From a virus (Duplodnaviria; Caudoviricetes), in the IMG/VR virus record IMGVR_UViG_3300031951_000008: DNA of 64,000 nt; one strand, given 5' to 3'. Positions within the stretch are counted from its first letter, which is position 1; each line of letters opens with the position of its first letter. The position numbers were made by a program, and so were the translations under genes. Positions 9,581-63,741 of this stretch are shown here, in pieces. The notes under the pieces were generated by a model, which ran no database searches, had not been told where the DNA came from, and saw only the letters and a list, made by a program, of their open reading frames with translations.

Positions 9581-9847
9581 TTAGTTAGAGGCTTTTTTCC
9601 AGTGAGCAGCTCGATTGCCATTAGCGTCTGTAACGATTATTTTACGATATAACGCATTAGTAATTGCGTTATAATAATATTCATGCCTATGTGTATTGGG
9701 ATCTGGTGGAAAGGCTGTTGGTTCCAAAATATTTCCACCTAGTCTTTCAACCATGCGGATGTTGTTAAACCCTACGGACTTCGGTTGTCGCTTTTGCTTT
9801 AGGTCGTTTAAAAATTCGTTTGTTACTGCTAAGCTATTTTCTGCCAT
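9581..9847 (-). CDS. Hypothetical protein (88 aa)
   Basis: ORF co-oriented with the structural genes. Confidence 0.65.
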   Translation of the reverse strand: MAENSLAVTNEFLNDLKQKRQPKSVGFNNIRMVERLGGNILEPTAFPPDPNTHRHEYYYNAITNALYRKIIVTDANGNRAAHWKKASN

Positions 9848-10015
9848 GATTACTCGTAGTACTCGCTTTGGTAATTAGAATACGTTTTATGTATCTTTGT
9901 GCCTGGCCGATAGATATTGTTAATAATTAATTGGTGCTTTATTCGCGATGTCTAAGCTCTTGCCACATGATAGCATAATTTTCGATCTTCGTTTCTCTTA
10001 GCATGAGGTATAATA

Positions 10016-10522
10016 ATGCATAAGAAACCTTCTACTTTCAATGTAGTCCCACCATTTTCTGGAGTCATTGTTGCCCAACTCAATTGTAACATGGCATCAG
10101 ATCTAGTTCATTTCTTCAAAGAGCAGTTCGGTAGCGCACCAGAAGTGCTACGAAAAAATCTCTCACAAGATCCTGAGCTAGCCAGCCTAATTTGTCATCT
10201 TGATGATCCAAATTACGAAGATGAACAATGGGAACCATCGCAAAACTCAGCCACTTTCGAGATCATTGAAGCCTTTAATGACGTTATTCTGATCACAATG
10301 GATTCAGCGATGCGGGATATGCTTATTAATTATATCTCGGACTACGAAGGCGAAGTACAAAAGACCATTTGGGCTTTTCGGCTAGCACTGGAGAATCCAG
10401 TCGGCAAAATCCAAGCACGCCGTGATAATACTTCTCGCCGTCCTCAAAGGGACCAGGGGAGAGATCAAGGTAGAGATTATCGAGACCGTGATTATCAAAG
10501 CCGTTCTCGTCGCTACGGCTGA
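10016..10522 (+). CDS. Hypothetical protein with R/D/Q-rich low-complexity tail
   Basis: GAGG RBS; C-terminus 'RDQGRDQGRDYRDRDYQSRSRRYG'. Confidence 0.75.
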   Translation: MHKKPSTFNVVPPFSGVIVAQLNCNMASDLVHFFKEQFGSAPEVLRKNLSQDPELASLICHLDDPNYEDEQWEPSQNSATFEIIEAFNDVILITMDSAMRDMLINYISDYEGEVQKTIWAFRLALENPVGKIQARRDNTSRRPQRDQGRDQGRDYRDRDYQSRSRRYG

Positions 10523-49832: not shown

Positions 49833-50030
49833 GGATCGGAAGCGTAATAGAAGATAGAAGTTCGCTCACGATGATACAAGTTTACTGGGGCACGTACGCC
49901 GGTAAACTAGTGTTGTGGGAGAGCTTCATAACGCACACGTTGAAGATGGAGTGAAATTGCTGCGAGAGTAGCTCCCGCGTGGTCTTAGCAGGGCGCAGAC
50001 CTTATAGAGTGGGTAAAATCCACCCGATCC
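49833..50030 (+). ncRNA. tRNA-like RNA A (198 nt)
   Basis: GGATCGG/CCGATCC acceptor; T-arm-like GTGG-GTAAAAT-CCAC; followed by a T-run. Confidence 0.55.
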
Positions 50031-53140: not shown

Positions 53141-53953
53141 ATGCAAGAATCGGGTCTCTCAAGCTTTCAATTTGTGCTCGTTAAAGCTCATACCGCTGTA
53201 CAAGTCTACGAAGGGGCCGGTATTGGTGACATTGTAGCGTCACCAGAGTGGGATCCTGATCCGGATTGTTTTGTTGGATTTAGGTGTAAGTATCCGCCAG
53301 CTGATTACCGCAGACAGAAAGGATTGGTGGGTATTCGGAACACGAGTGATGGTTGGTATTATATGAACGGTGGTTATGGCGAACCACCTGCGTCCACATT
53401 GTACCGTGGTGAAGACGGGCCTGCTGGTGCTGAGTGGCTTGTTGTTAAGGTTTCTGATGCCGATTTGGTGGATGTCGATTATACGGCCCATATGGATGAA
53501 AAAACGAGTGCACAATATAACAAGACGTTCTGCAGTCTAGGCCATGTCTTTTGCAAATTCAGGAGGGGCCAGATTATTTTCAGAGGAGGTTCTGAGGAAT
53601 TATCACGTTCCGGATTCGCTGATGTAATACCTCTAAGCTCTAAGTGTGCTTATTATTGGGCAAAGGAGGTAGGTAATCGCGATTTAATGCTCACAAGGAT
53701 GGTAGATGATAAAATGGTGTTGTTCTGGGCAATGGATACGGATCTTTGTGATAATGATACGCGGTTGATGCTGCGTGATCGCATCAATGAGCAATGGGCT
53801 GCTAGACTGTGGGGTATTTTCATTGGCGACCGTGAGATCATGAGATCTCGCATAGTCGACCAAGTATGGATTGATTCGTGGAACGCATCGATGACGTTAT
53901 TTCCGAAGCCTTTGCTTTCTAAGAAGCTGGCGGTTAATAGCATACAAGCCTAA
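53141..53953 (+). CDS. Phage protein with DUF7666-like N-domain
   Basis: 'GDIVASPEWDPDPDC..G ... WLVVKV ... KFRRGQIIFRG'. Confidence 0.55.
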   Translation: MQESGLSSFQFVLVKAHTAVQVYEGAGIGDIVASPEWDPDPDCFVGFRCKYPPADYRRQKGLVGIRNTSDGWYYMNGGYGEPPASTLYRGEDGPAGAEWLVVKVSDADLVDVDYTAHMDEKTSAQYNKTFCSLGHVFCKFRRGQIIFRGGSEELSRSGFADVIPLSSKCAYYWAKEVGNRDLMLTRMVDDKMVLFWAMDTDLCDNDTRLMLRDRINEQWAARLWGIFIGDREIMRSRIVDQVWIDSWNASMTLFPKPLLSKKLAVNSIQA

Positions 53954-53992
53954 TATGAATAATAGTGCCTTGAAGCAGAAAGAATCACAAAA

Positions 53993-54250
53993 ATGAAATT
54001 GAAATATCAAGATTGTGACGGTCGCAATTCAGCAAATGATAGAGTTGGAAATCCAAAAGTCATCATCGAGATGACAGTTGATGAAATGATGAAATTTTCT
54101 GCGAAAACACATGCAGAAAAAATTGACCAAAGCATCAAAATCTTGAAAAACACCCTCACCGTAATCGAAAATTTGAAGTATGGGGATCGTAATCCCTATA
54201 TGAAACTTGACGGTGTTGTGCGTTTGGATATTAACATCGATAATCCTTGA
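53993..54250 (+). CDS. Hypothetical protein, AT-rich
   Basis: ORF. Confidence 0.65.
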   Translation: MKLKYQDCDGRNSANDRVGNPKVIIEMTVDEMMKFSAKTHAEKIDQSIKILKNTLTVIENLKYGDRNPYMKLDGVVRLDINIDNP

Positions 54251-54288
54251 ACAGTAGTACCACTTGTTGTGTTAGTATTTAGTAAGTT

Positions 54289-54389
54289 GGATCGGTAGTG
54301 AGTTGGGGTTAGTGACCTGTAAAATGATTGCAGCACTCTGCAATCGTAGCTTGCGAGCGGAACACGCTGGTTCGAATCCGGCCCGATCC
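54289..54389 (+). ncRNA. tRNA-like RNA B (101 nt)
   Basis: GGATCGG-TAG start; T-arm GCTGG-TTCGAAT-CCGGC; CCGATCC-TTTT end; no canonical anticodon arm. Confidence 0.7.
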
Positions 54390-54393
54390 TTTT

Positions 54394-54505
54394 GAAGTTA
54401 GGAGAGTGTGGCCTAAACCGGAAAGCGGGATGGGTGGCAGGTCAGGTCAGTAATGACCCTTTGGTAGCATCATAGTGCGAAAGGCACAGTATACACCCTG
54501 ACTTC
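54394..54505 (+). ncRNA. Structured RNA with GNRA hairpins
   Basis: Closing stem GAAGTTAGG/CCTGACTTC; GGTCA-GTAA-TGACC; GTGC-GAAAG-GCAC; CCTAA...ATGG receptor-like motif. Confidence 0.55.
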
Positions 54506-54512
54506 ATTTTTT

Positions 54513-54632
54513 GGATCGGCGGCGTTGTGGGTACACGCGACCCGTGGCGAGGGCGACTAGGGGCCACACACGGCGATAAAACGAAAGCGAGTTGTACATA
54601 GCTTGCGAGCAGGTTCGAATCCTGTCCGGTCC
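54513..54632 (+). ncRNA. tRNA-like RNA C (120 nt)
   Basis: GGATCGG/CCGGTCC; T-arm GCAGG-TTCGAAT-CCTGT; shares TAGCTTGCGAGC with RNA B. Confidence 0.7.
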
Positions 54633-54755
54633 TTTGAGTCACTAGCAATCACGGCAGCGATGCCGTCAAGTGACGCGACGAGACCGATTGCTTATATCGT
54701 TGCCAGGGCCGTGACTGACTGTAGCGCGACAGTGGATGCAAGCACGGAGACTGTG

Positions 54756-54779
54756 ACAGCCGGAGAGACGGCGAGGATC
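54756..54779 (+). repeat. 24-bp direct repeat, copy 1 (second copy 55008-55031)
   Basis: ACAGCCGGAGAGACGGCGAGGATC, containing hairpin GCCG/CGGC. Confidence 0.9.
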
Positions 54780-54876
54780 GGTGGCAATCCTAAAGATTGC
54801 AGGGGTGTTGATCGCGACAACACTACCAGAAGTTCTGCCCATAAGCGACTTGGCAGGAGAATCACCTGCCCGATCC
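54775..54876 (+). ncRNA. tRNA-like RNA D (102 nt)
   Basis: GGATCGG/CCGATCC; T-arm-like GCAGG-AGAATCA-CCTGC; T6 tail. Confidence 0.6.
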
Positions 54877-55007
54877 TTTTTTAAGCGAACAGCGGTTATA
54901 GAACGTCACAACAGTTACCAGTGGTGAACCCAATAGTTGGGGAACTTCTCCTATTAAGCTCTGCAGAGCCCAACGGTGATGGAAAACACAAAAACTATAC
55001 GGGCGTA

Positions 55008-55031
55008 ACAGCCGGAGAGACGGCGAGGATC
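55008..55031 (+). repeat. 24-bp direct repeat, copy 2
   Basis: ACAGCCGGAGAGACGGCGAGGATC. Confidence 0.9.
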
Positions 55032-55123
55032 ATCGCGTCGTGACGGTAATCACGACAGCACAAGAGGCGTGCGGGATTGTTTGCTGCTAGCGTTAAAGCC
55101 CTTTTGCAAACCTTTCGAAGTGA

Positions 55124-55345
55124 GTGAGAAGCTCACATGGTCCTTTTACTTTTAGGTGTACAATGGAATGCACTGAATACACTGAATACTCATATGTCGT
55201 GTTCGATTCAAAAGCGAATGTAATCGCGGTGTACACCGCGAAAGATTATGCATACAGATTAGCACAAAAGCTAGATGGTCATGTGCAGATTTGTGAACTC
55301 GATCCGCATATTGGTACAAGTATAGATGGAATACTTAGCTCATGA
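55124..55345 (+). CDS. Small hypothetical protein
   Basis: 'YVVFDSKANVIAVY...AYRLA'; start uncertain. Confidence 0.55.
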   Translation: MRSSHGPFTFRCTMECTEYTEYSYVVFDSKANVIAVYTAKDYAYRLAQKLDGHVQICELDPHIGTSIDGILSS

Positions 55346-55574
55346 GCCATATTCCTTTCGGGGCCTTATCCGCCATAATACATCGGCAGGTCGTTTAAAT
55401 AAGACATGCTGCCCATTTGTCCGGAGTGGGTAGCATATGCAAGCAAGCCAATCAAGCCAGGTTATCCGGTACCCAGGAGGCAAAGGGCTTCACGATAGGG
55501 GAGGGGTGATTGGGGCTGTGCAAGTCTTGCCCTGCTTTTATACTGTTTGTTTCATTTCTATATGGAGGAGCGTT

Positions 55575-63667: not shown

Positions 63668-63741
63668 GCCTCTGTAGCTCAGGTGGATAGAGCAGCAGAT
63701 TTCTAATCTGCTGGTCGTAGGTTCGATTCCTACCAGAGGTG
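63668..63741 (+). tRNA. trnR: tRNA-Arg (anticodon TCT)
   Basis: Acceptor GCCTCTG/CAGAGGT; D arm TAGCTCAGGTGGATAGAGC; anticodon arm GCAGA-TTTCTAA-TCTGC; T-loop GGTTCGATTCC; no encoded CCA. Confidence 0.95.

What the first reader, a model, noticed from the sequence alone, without database searches (positions are those of the whole stretch)
54280..55110. About 830-bp gene-free island packed with GNRA-capped hairpins: possibly one large ncRNA
Seen: besides tRNA-like B-D, the interval has a closed domain 54394-54505 (GTAA and GAAA loops, CCTAA...ATGG tetraloop-receptor-like motif). It also has GTCACT/AGTGAC enclosing CGGCA-GCGA-TGCCG, TCGTGA/TCACGA, and a 24-bp duplication ACAGCCGGAGAGACGGCGAGGATC whose first copy leads straight into RNA D. 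There is no convincing ORF in an otherwise gene-dense genome. Established: phages carry large structured RNAs near tRNAs (GOLLD, ROOL). Inference: either a polycistronic ncRNA precursor or one large structured RNA.
Basis: partly seen in the sequence, partly recalled or inferred. Interest (0 to 1): 0.65.

Follow-up and report, generated by a model that had tools for sequence, protein, structure and literature searches.

The report
Phage array of swappable small RNAs
The 900-base gene-free stretch of this giant freshwater phage is a chain of seven separate small RNA genes, not one big RNA: four are tRNA-shaped but cannot read codons, and three belong to two RNA families absent from Rfam, one of which occurs in phages of many host phyla.

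Summary
Window 54251-55162 has no credible ORF and is packed with plus-strand RNA structure. It is not one large RNA. It holds seven discrete modules. Four are tRNA-shaped "shell" RNAs: B, C, D and a newly found E at 55027-55143. Three structured spacer RNAs alternate with them.

- **S1** (54394-54505) belongs to a conserved family with compensatory base-pair changes.
- **S2 and S3** end in the 17-mer ACAGCCGGAGAGACGGC. This 17-mer follows a covarying stem, is exact in at least 120 viral contigs, and occurs in cultured phages and in genomes of many phyla. No Rfam family matches it.

The same modules occur in other phages in other orders. In a near-identical relative, S2-D-S3 is replaced by one different cassette and B has lost 51 interior bases. 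Metatranscriptome contigs from three studies cover only 54901-55120, which is S3 joined to E.

My best reading is a tRNA-punctuated, cassette-swapping array of stable small RNAs, of the kind typified by T4 rnaC and rnaD. Function is unknown. This scan has already reported similar arrays of tRNA look-alikes on other phage DNA.

The parts
54251..54288 (+). Unassigned leader between the stop of the 85-aa ORF and module B
   Evidence: Sequence. No sigma-70-like promoter was found. Two differences from relative L358 lie at 54230-54288, one of them in this leader.
54289..54389 (+). B: tRNA-shaped shell RNA. It has a 7-bp GGATCGG/CCGATCC stem, a T arm GCTGG-TTCGAAT-CCGGC, then TTTT. A 51-nt insert sits in the D-loop-like region, and there is no anticodon arm.
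   Evidence: Script scan. Rfam tRNA model gives 24.2 bits, below the gathering score of 29. ARAGORN is negative. Relative L358 keeps the shell but lacks the 51-nt interior.
54394..54505 (+). S1: closed multi-helix RNA with GNRA-capped hairpins, followed by A and T6 (to 54512)
   Evidence: Fold z-score -3.7. The family has 8 distinct members, and 10 of 28 pairs are compensatory. It is 83-89% identical to L193, L208, L202 and L137. No Rfam match.
54513..54632 (+). C: tRNA-shaped shell RNA with canonical D arm (GCGT-TGTGGGTAC-ACGC) and T arm. About 70 nt stand in place of the anticodon and variable arms. The acceptor stem has a U-G pair.
   Evidence: It has an 83% homolog over 112 nt in L014/L015. 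It differs by 1 nt from L358.
54633..54774 (+). S2: structured spacer RNA ending in the stem plus 17-mer motif (17-mer at 54756-54772)
   Evidence: Homologous over its whole length to L012 and L100, each directly after a shell RNA. Compensatory changes: AGCAATC/GATTGCT vs AGCCATC/GATGGCT, and CCGTG/CACGG vs CCATG/CATGG. Indels are not multiples of 3.
54775..54876 (+). D: tRNA-shaped shell RNA. It has a 6-bp first hairpin and a long second hairpin with a 7-nt loop AUCGCGA. A variable-arm-like hairpin follows, then a T-arm-like GGCAGG-AGAATCA-CCTGCC and T6.
   Evidence: Absent from relative L358. No homolog among the fetched loci.
54877..55026 (+). S3: second motif RNA. Stem ACGTC (54903-54907) pairs with GGCGT (55002-55006) around a 94-nt insert. 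The 17-mer lies at 55008-55024.
   Evidence: RNA contigs start at 54901 or 54904, the base of this stem.
55027..55143 (+). GGATCAT/ATGGTCC stem, T-arm-like GTGAG-TGAGAAG-CTCAC, then TTTT.
   Evidence: Conserved in L358 with changes mainly in loops. A strain variant in one RNA run turns the U-G pair of the closing stem into C-G.
54901..55120 (+). Stretch present as stand-alone contigs in four metatranscriptome runs (three studies), bridging S3 into E
   Evidence: contigs at 54901-55120, 54901-55068, 54904-55087 and 54904-55097. Nothing else of 53900-55500 was laid.
49833..50030 (+). A: a fifth, 198-nt shell RNA of the same family, outside the island
   Evidence: Sequence printed (GGATCGG...CCGATCC). 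Noted by an earlier finding. Not studied further here.

Best explanation
The island is a co-oriented array of seven separate small-RNA cassettes.

**The cassettes.** Four are tRNA-derived scaffolds (B, C, D, E). They keep the acceptor-type closing stem stacked on a T arm, and C also keeps the D arm. The anticodon arm is deleted or replaced by unrelated structured inserts. Three structured RNAs alternate with them. One is S1, a closed multi-helix RNA. The other two, S2 and S3, belong to a very widespread phage RNA family. That family is built from a covarying stem (in some members an H-type pseudoknot) followed by the invariant tail G-ACA-GCCG-GAGAGA-CGGC.

**Shown here:**
- the modules and their plus-strand structure;
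- their separate conservation;
- their reshuffling between phages;
- cassette replacement between near-identical genomes;
- the presence of an S3-E RNA in environmental RNA libraries.

**Inferred mechanism.** I infer that the array is transcribed as one or a few precursors. The host's tRNA-processing enzymes would then cut at the tRNA-shaped elements: RNase P at their 5' ends, and RNase Z or RNase E in the U-rich trailers. This would release both the scaffolds and the spacer RNAs, as in tRNA-punctuated transcripts. The terminal stems and the motif hairpin would protect the new ends. The conserved junctions (GGAGAGACGGC-GA-GGATC and CCGATCC-TTTT) would serve as processing sites and as recombination points for cassette exchange.

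**Function.** This is not established. My best guess, at low confidence, is that these are stable RNAs acting on host tRNA- or translation-linked machinery, for example as decoys.
For: - **Four shell RNAs.** Each has a 7-bp closing stem plus an adjacent 5-bp hairpin and a T run. All are co-oriented within 860 nt.
- **Plus-strand RNA.** G-U pairs in the stems of C, E and S1 fit RNA from the plus strand.
- **The shell recurs elsewhere.** The same GGATCGG shell with unrelated interiors occurs in IMG/VR contigs, several times directly beside real tRNA genes. A looser regular-expression scan of the fetched loci listed 25 distinct candidate sequences; several of these lack a tRNA-like T loop and may be chance hits.
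- **S1 family.** It shows compensatory pairs.
- **S2 homologs.** They show compensatory pairs.
- **Motif family.**
  - The 17-mer is exact in at least 120 viral contigs.
  - The 18-mer GACAGCCGGAGAGACGGC is exact in at least 120 genome stretches from many phyla. I estimate about 17 by chance.
  - The stem is found in 67 of 121 instances against 28.9 +/- 4.3 in permuted controls.
  - Hairpin stem variants keep GACAG and the GARAGA loop.
- **Different module orders.** L003 reads tRNA-Met, shell, motif RNA, tRNA-Asn, short shell, S1-type. L182 and L202 read motif-GA-shell-TTTT-S1-type.
- **Motif lies close to tRNAs.** A tRNA or shell RNA starts 2-10 nt after the motif in about a dozen loci.
- **Relative L358.** About 99% of aligned bases match in the shared parts. 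S2-D-S3 is replaced by one 97-nt motif RNA, and B has lost 51 interior nt with its shell intact.
- **RNA evidence.** RNA contigs run from 54901/54904 to 55068-55120 in 4 runs from 3 studies.
Against: - No processing site has been mapped. The RNA data are assembled contigs, which cannot show true ends.
- Those contigs show S3 still joined to E. RNase P cleavage at 55026/55027 is therefore at best incomplete, or S3+E is a single functional RNA.
- No promoter was identified.
- D and E have non-canonical T loops, and a hairpin sits only 2 nt before their 5' ends. Either could hinder RNase P.
- Each shell and S1 is followed by a T run. The modules could therefore be separately terminated units rather than punctuated ones.
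- The interiors of B, D, E and S3 have no homologs among the fetched loci, so their structures are untested.
Confidence: 0.7

Rival explanations
1. The modules are independent small-RNA genes. Each would end at its own terminator-like closing stem plus U run, and some would have their own start (for example at 54901). They would not be pieces cut from a precursor by tRNA-processing enzymes.
For: T runs follow B, S1, C, D and E. D is picked up by the terminator scan. RNA contigs from three studies begin within 3 nt of each other, at 54901 or 54904. In Morganella phage IME1369_02 the motif RNA is followed by a hairpin plus T run.
Against: No promoter-like sites lie inside the island. Only 0-6 nt separate most modules, which leaves no room for promoters. 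The S3-E contig crosses a module boundary.
Confidence: 0.15
2. The island is a graveyard of decaying tRNA genes with no function of its own.
For: B has lost 51 nt in a close relative. D and E have non-canonical T loops. ARAGORN and Rfam do not call any of them as a tRNA.
Against: The helices are intact. The same shell with intact stems recurs in many phages. S1 is 83-89% identical across phages in which the two window proteins tested have no detectable relative. The spacers show compensatory changes. RNA is present in metatranscriptomes.
Confidence: 0.08
3. The whole interval is one large structured RNA of the GOLLD/ROOL type.
For: The 901-nt fold has z = -2.97 with 20 shuffles. The region has dense structure and no ORF.
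Against: No Rfam match. The predicted structure is almost wholly local domains. Modules are permuted in other phages. 391 nt are replaced in a near-identical genome. RNA contigs cover only a ~220-nt part.
Confidence: 0.04
4. The shell RNAs are real decoding tRNAs that carry unusual introns or expansions, which are removed or tolerated.
For: D has a 7-nt loop AUCGCGA with U at the position of U33, on a long stem, plus a long variable-arm-like hairpin. C has canonical D and T arms.
Against: B (and its 50-nt form in L358) has no anticodon arm at all. C and E have no 7-nt anticodon-like loop. No group I intron or tRNA model matches at E<=10 apart from B's sub-threshold hit.
Confidence: 0.03

Closest known systems
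Bacteriophage T4 rnaC (species 1, 139 nt) and rnaD (species 2, 119 nt), small stable RNAs of the tRNA cluster
   Same: They are small stable RNAs of unknown role, encoded head-to-tail with tRNA genes on one strand. rnaC ends in a canonical T arm (CCGGG-TTCGAAT-CCCGG). PMC3014915 states their 'biological roles are unknown'.
   Different: I found no sequence similarity: the island gave no match in GenBank phages. T4 has two such RNAs beside eight real tRNAs. Here there are four scaffold RNAs with one shared acceptor stem, three conserved spacer RNAs, and no ordinary tRNA in the island.
Ordinary tRNA genes and phage tRNA arrays (Rfam RF00005)
   Same: The shell RNAs have a 7-bp acceptor-type stem stacked on a 5-bp T stem. 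B and C have the TTCGAAT loop, and C has a D arm with GG. In related loci they sit among real tRNAs.
   Different: There is no anticodon arm, or it is replaced. Lengths are 101-120 nt here, and 198 nt for A. Scores fall below the model threshold or are absent. D and E have non-canonical T loops. No CCA is encoded.
GOLLD (RF01998) and ROOL (RF03087) large phage ncRNAs
   Same: They are phage-borne, lie near tRNA genes, and fill ORF-free, heavily structured stretches.
   Different: They are single large RNAs with one conserved architecture. Here there is no model match, and the stretch is a mosaic of exchangeable ~100-150-nt modules.
Theta (minimal HDV-like) ribozymes next to phage tRNAs (PMC10879173)
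   Same: They are small pseudoknotted RNA elements placed within a few nucleotides of phage tRNA genes, and are thought to shape tRNA ends.
   Different: Theta ribozymes lie 3' of the tRNA and cut at their own 5' end. The 17-mer motif lies 5' of the tRNA or shell. Loops as short as 8 nt leave no room for HDV-type P2 and P3 helices. The position that would hold the catalytic C is not conserved.
Anticodon-less tRNA-mimic arrays reported earlier by this scan on other phage DNA
   Same: They show the same design: a tRNA chassis with varied middle domains, alternating with structured spacer RNAs, in swappable cassettes.
   Different: Those are AI notes on other genomes, and I did not check them.

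Membership tests
tRNA (Rfam RF00005; ARAGORN) | 7-bp acceptor stem whose 3' strand directly follows the T stem | tested here: met
   B, C, D and E all have it.
tRNA (Rfam RF00005; ARAGORN) | T arm with a 5-bp stem and a T-loop of the UUCRANY type | tested here: inconclusive
   Met by B and C (TTCGAAT). Not met by D (AGAATCA) or E (TGAGAAG).
tRNA (Rfam RF00005; ARAGORN) | Anticodon arm: 5-bp stem and 7-nt loop with U33 | tested here: not met
   Constrained folds show no such arm in B, C or E. D has a 7-nt loop on a 7-9-bp stem. L358's B has no room for one.
tRNA (Rfam RF00005; ARAGORN) | Score at or above the curated model threshold | tested here: not met
   B scores 24.2 bits against a gathering score of 29. 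C, D and E give no hit at E<=10. ARAGORN finds only tRNA-Arg at 63668.
GOLLD / ROOL large ncRNAs | Match to the family covariance model | tested here: not met
   No hit at the gathering threshold or at E<=10.
GOLLD / ROOL large ncRNAs | One conserved large architecture kept intact in relatives | tested here: not met
   Modules are permuted in L003, L182 and L202. S2-D-S3 is replaced in L358.
T4 rnaC/rnaD-type tRNA-cluster stable RNAs | Small non-decoding RNA encoded in line with tRNA genes, with tRNA-like terminal parts | tested here: met
   The shell RNAs have tRNA-like ends. In related loci they abut real tRNAs. T4 rnaC has a canonical T arm.
T4 rnaC/rnaD-type tRNA-cluster stable RNAs | Sequence homology to rnaC or rnaD | tested here: not met
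   blastn of 54200-55200 against 50,697 phage records gave no match.
T4 rnaC/rnaD-type tRNA-cluster stable RNAs | Accumulates as a stable, processed RNA | tested here: inconclusive
   Only S3-E is seen, as contigs in RNA libraries. True ends and stability are not measurable with contigs.
tmRNA (RF00023) | tRNA-like domain plus tag reading frame and pseudoknots; model match | tested here: not met
   No Rfam or ARAGORN tmRNA call in the window.
HDV-like / theta ribozymes | Nested double pseudoknot with P1, P2 and P3 and an invariant catalytic C after P4; located 3' of the tRNA | tested here: not met
   The loop between the stem strands is as short as 8 nt. The base two positions after the hairpin is C in only 58% of instances, and is A in both window copies. 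The element lies 5' of tRNAs.

The most novel reading that the evidence does not exclude
The stem/pseudoknot plus G-ACA-GCCG-GAGAGA-CGGC element at the ends of S2 and S3 could be a new class of self-contained RNA device. It might be a self-cleaving ribozyme or an end-protecting fold that works without host-specific factors. It would define and shield RNA ends in phages of bacteria from many phyla, and perhaps of archaea. In this island it would be combined with tRNA-shaped scaffolds to manufacture a changeable set of stable small RNAs. In its favour, environmental RNA begins within 2 nt of the base of its stem, and the element usually sits 2-60 nt before the next tRNA or start codon.
Probability: 0.12. 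Interest if true: 0.85.

Novelty: new variant of a known kind. Interest (0 to 1): 0.55.

Why it matters
Phage tRNA clusters have been known since the 1970s to include stable RNAs of unknown role, and these have stayed unexplained. This island shows the phenomenon in a clear modular form. One tRNA chassis carries different inserts. It is interleaved with conserved structured RNAs, and cassettes are exchanged between a 320-kb phage and small freshwater phages, and between near-identical strains.

The work also yields two RNA families absent from Rfam 15. One has an invariant 17-18-nt core. That core occurs in cultured phages of Pseudomonas, Morganella, Rhizobium, Stenotrophomonas and cyanobacteria. 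It also occurs in genomes or MAGs from more than ten phyla. Because cultured phages carry it, its function can be tested directly at the bench.

Tried and rejected
- **Whole genome.** None is held for this window.
- **Flanking proteins.** Searches of IMG/VR with the 270-aa and 311-aa proteins found no relatives.
- **GenBank phages.** blastn of the island found nothing.
- **E. coli genomes.** They do not hold the Morganella-type motif RNA.
- **Rfam.** Searches at the gathering threshold and at E<=10 on the window, on 17 related loci and on a canonical motif instance gave only tRNA and tmRNA hits elsewhere.
- **Full-text search.** A search for GCCGGAGAGACGGC found no paper. Two topic searches found no description of such arrays.
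- **Covariance model.** I meant to build one for the motif family. MAFFT could not align the variable loop, so I used permutation tests in scripts instead.
- **Gene association.** A fixed gene partner for the motif was rejected. Neighbouring genes include capsid, SSB, exonuclease, Erf, HNH, tail, PAPS reductase and ThyX genes. No TnpB-like gene lies upstream.
- **Known ribozyme and aptamer folds.** I compared the motif from memory with HDV-like, hatchet, pistol and twister ribozymes and with guanidine-III, preQ1 and SRP folds. None fits the consensus, and none is found by Rfam.
- **RNA cover.** B, S1, C, S2 and D were not covered in the four RNA runs. This says nothing either way.
- **Promoters.** The sigma-70 promoter scan found nothing inside the island. 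This phage may use other promoters.
- **ARAGORN 'tmRNA*' calls.** The calls at L008 and L011 are seeded on a shell T arm and look spurious.
Full report
**What is in the sequence**

Between the stop codon of an 85-aa ORF (54250) and an ATG with a Shine-Dalgarno sequence at 55163 there is no credible ORF. On the plus strand, a script looked for a 7-bp closing stem whose 3' strand directly follows a 5-bp hairpin with a 7-nt loop. It found four co-oriented elements:

| Module | Coordinates | Closing stem |
|---|---|---|
| B | 54289-54389 | GGATCGG/CCGATCC |
| C | 54513-54632 | GGATCGG/CCGGTCC |
| D | 54775-54876 | GGATCGG/CCGATCC |
| E | 55027-55143 | GGATCAT/ATGGTCC |

- Each element is followed by a T run.
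- Their 3' ends lie 243-244 nt apart.
- ARAGORN calls none of them.
- The Rfam tRNA model gives B 24.2 bits, below its threshold of 29. It gives nothing for C, D or E at E<=10, and no other Rfam family matches the island.

Three spacers lie between the shells: S1 (54394-54505), S2 (54633-54774) and S3 (54877-55026). Its 17-mer core, ACAGCCGGAGAGACGGC, occurs twice in the window against 0.06 expected.

**The tRNA-shaped shells**

A pattern for the shell found 13 IMG/VR loci. Most share GGATCGG-CG-GCGTGGTGGGAACACGC (acceptor strand plus a D arm with GG) and GCAGGTTCGAATCCTGC-CCGATCC. The 55-70 nt between these two parts are unrelated from locus to locus. Several sit directly beside real tRNA genes, for example between tRNA-Met and tRNA-Asn in L003. 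A looser regular-expression scan of the fetched loci listed 25 distinct candidate sequences; several lack a tRNA-like T loop and may be chance hits.

- C is of the common type and has an 83% homolog in L014/L015.
- D and E have non-canonical loops in the T-arm position.
- Constrained folds show no standard anticodon arm in B, C or E.

These are tRNA-derived scaffolds, not decoders. U-G pairs in the closing stems of C and E fit RNA made from the plus strand.

**S1**

S1 folds much better than shuffled sequence, with z = -3.7. A 14-mer scan, filtered for the 5' block GGAGAGTGTGG, gave 8 distinct family members. In their alignment, 10 of 28 predicted pairs show compensatory changes. These include five pairs of the closing stem and three pairs of the first hairpin. 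Long blocks are invariant (GAGUGUGG, GAUGGGUGGCUGG, CAUAGUSCGARAGGCACAGUAUACACCCU).

- S1 is 83-89% identical to copies in L193, L208, L202 and L137, although the two flanking window proteins I tested have no relatives in IMG/VR.
- In most loci S1 follows a shell RNA plus TTTT and ends the island before an ORF. In two loci it stands alone.

**S2, S3 and the 17-mer family**

The 18-mer with the preceding G is exact in at least 120 stretches of bacterial and archaeal genomes or MAGs. I estimate about 17 such hits by chance. The hits include Clostridia, Bacteroidales, Alpha- and Gammaproteobacteria, Planctomycetes, Actinobacteria, Acidobacteriota, Verrucomicrobiota, CPR bacteria and two Methanomethylophilaceae MAGs. 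MAG hits may be binned phage contigs.

The motif also lies in unannotated gaps of cultured phages: Pseudomonas Itty13, Morganella IME1369_02, Synechococcus MinM2, and Rhizobium and Stenotrophomonas phages.

Structure around the motif:

- **Stem.** Just 5' of the motif is a 5-bp stem of variable sequence (RA-ACGNN ... NNCGU-G). It is present in 67 of 121 distinct instances, against 28.9 +/- 4.3 (maximum 45) when stems and flanks are permuted.
- **Pseudoknot.** A second helix would make an H-type pseudoknot. It is present with 4 or more pairs in 22 of 66, against 9.3 +/- 2.7.
- **Hairpin.** Variants with other hairpin stems keep GACAG and the GARAGA loop.

Context of the motif:

- No Rfam family covers it, and the string is in no paper of the library.
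- Neighbouring genes are unrelated to one another.
- About a dozen instances are followed within 2-10 nt by a tRNA or shell RNA. Many others are followed within 2-62 nt by a start codon.
- S2 is homologous over its whole length to RNAs in L012 and L100. Both directly follow a shell RNA and show compensatory changes.

**Modularity**

L003 reads: a ~145-nt structured RNA, tRNA-Met, shell, motif RNA, tRNA-Asn, short shell, S1-type, T run, ORF. L182 and L202 read motif-GA-shell-TTTT-S1-type. L015 reads two tRNA-like elements, motif RNA, then a C-like RNA. The window reads B, S1, C, S2, D, S3, E.

The strongest test is L358, a 323,894-bp contig found through the only homolog of the upstream 270-aa protein. 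About 99% of aligned bases match in the shared parts. Compared with the window:

- S1 and C differ by one base each.
- E differs mainly in loops.
- B has lost 51 interior bases but keeps its shell.
- The 391 nt of S2-D-S3 are replaced by one different 97-nt motif RNA. The replacement lies exactly between the junctions CCGGTCC-(T/A)TT and ACAGCCGGAGAGACGGCGAGGATC.

A single large RNA would not tolerate this. An array of cassettes explains it.

**Expression**

The stretch is held by freshwater DNA runs and, in part, by RNA runs. In four metatranscriptome runs from three studies the only contigs on 53900-55500 are 54901-55120, 54901-55068, 54904-55087 and 54904-55097. They are stand-alone contigs of 169-220 nt. 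They begin within 2 nt of the base of S3's stem (GAACGUC) and cross the S3/E junction. One is a strain variant whose T-to-C change at 55030 turns the U-G pair of E's closing stem into C-G.

Contigs cannot give true ends or abundance, and DNA carry-over cannot be excluded in principle. Even so, the same short piece in three studies argues for a stable RNA that includes S3 and E. Lack of cover elsewhere is not evidence.

**How it most likely works**

*Shown here:*
- seven plus-strand structured modules;
- separate conservation of most of them;
- reshuffling and replacement of modules;
- at least one RNA species in environmental RNA libraries.

*Inferred:*
- The array is transcribed as a precursor.
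- Host tRNA-processing enzymes cut at the tRNA-shaped elements, with RNase P at the 5' side and RNase Z or E in the U-rich trailers.
- This releases scaffolds and spacers, and the terminal stems protect the new ends.
- The conserved junctions double as recombination points.

*Against simple punctuation:*
- S3 and E are seen joined.
- A hairpin lies 2 nt before D and E.
- No promoter was found.
- The T runs could be terminators.

Function is unknown. A role toward host tRNA- or translation-linked machinery is a guess.

**Comparison with what is known**

The nearest described things are T4 rnaC and rnaD. They are stable RNAs in the tRNA cluster, and rnaC has a canonical T arm. Their roles are unknown (PMC3014915).

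- GOLLD and ROOL do not match.
- Theta ribozymes (PMC10879173) sit on the other side of tRNAs and do not fit the fold.
- Earlier notes of this scan describe similar arrays of anticodon-less tRNA mimics on other phage DNA, so the kind is not new to the scan.

New here are module E, the S1 family, the breadth and structure of the 17-mer family, the cassette replacement in a near-identical genome, and the RNA-library evidence.

**Verdict**

I class it as a new variant of a known but poorly understood kind, with moderate interest. The 17-mer element is the part most worth bench work.

Noticed in passing
L135 (Pseudomonas phage Itty13, MW460249.1) 1459-2340: An unannotated ~880-bp gap near the small terminase gene holds the 17-mer motif (about 1508-1530). 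About 40 nt later comes a ~100-nt long tRNA-like RNA (GGCAATG...CATTGCC with canonical D and T arms), and a further T arm lies near 2115. This looks like a similar RNA island in a cultured phage.
   Followed up: partly
L136 (Morganella phage IME1369_02, KY653119.1) 1347-1576: The motif RNA lies just upstream of the holin gene and is followed by a hairpin plus T run. That is the position of the late-leader RNA in lambdoid phages.
   Followed up: partly
L003 1-144; also L137, L208, L231: A conserved ~145-nt, GC-rich, apparently structured sequence (GTGCGACTCGCG...CCGGCAA) heads the RNA islands of several freshwater phages, just before their first tRNA. It is not present in the window.
   Followed up: no
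L070 (minus strand) about 9815-10235 in reverse-complement coordinates: Three tandem 116-118-nt tRNA-like RNAs have canonical D and T arms and different acceptor stems. Two of their interiors contain a hairpin followed by GACAGCAA, which recalls the GACAGCC of the 17-mer motif. L119 has similar cases (CGTGACAGCGG and CGTGACAGCCGC).
   Followed up: no
window 49833-50030: A fifth shell RNA (A, 198 nt, GGATCGG...CCGATCC, 4-bp T-like stem) lies 4 kb upstream in another intergenic gap. No 17-mer motif lies next to it.
   Followed up: partly
window 55163-55345 vs L358 2327-2434: The small ORF after the island (60 aa here, 35 aa as called in the relative) diverges sharply after its first ~10 codons, while the surrounding DNA is about 95-99% identical.
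   Followed up: no
L008 7078-7688 and L011 1367-1977: ARAGORN calls a permuted tmRNA with tag AAARRSVKRQVAA. The call is seeded on the T arm of a GGATCGG shell RNA and is probably a false call, but I did not check it.
   Followed up: no
window 33000-60000: There is strong mirror-image GC and AT skew that flips near 41-42 kb. Earlier readers of this window have already noted it.
   Followed up: no
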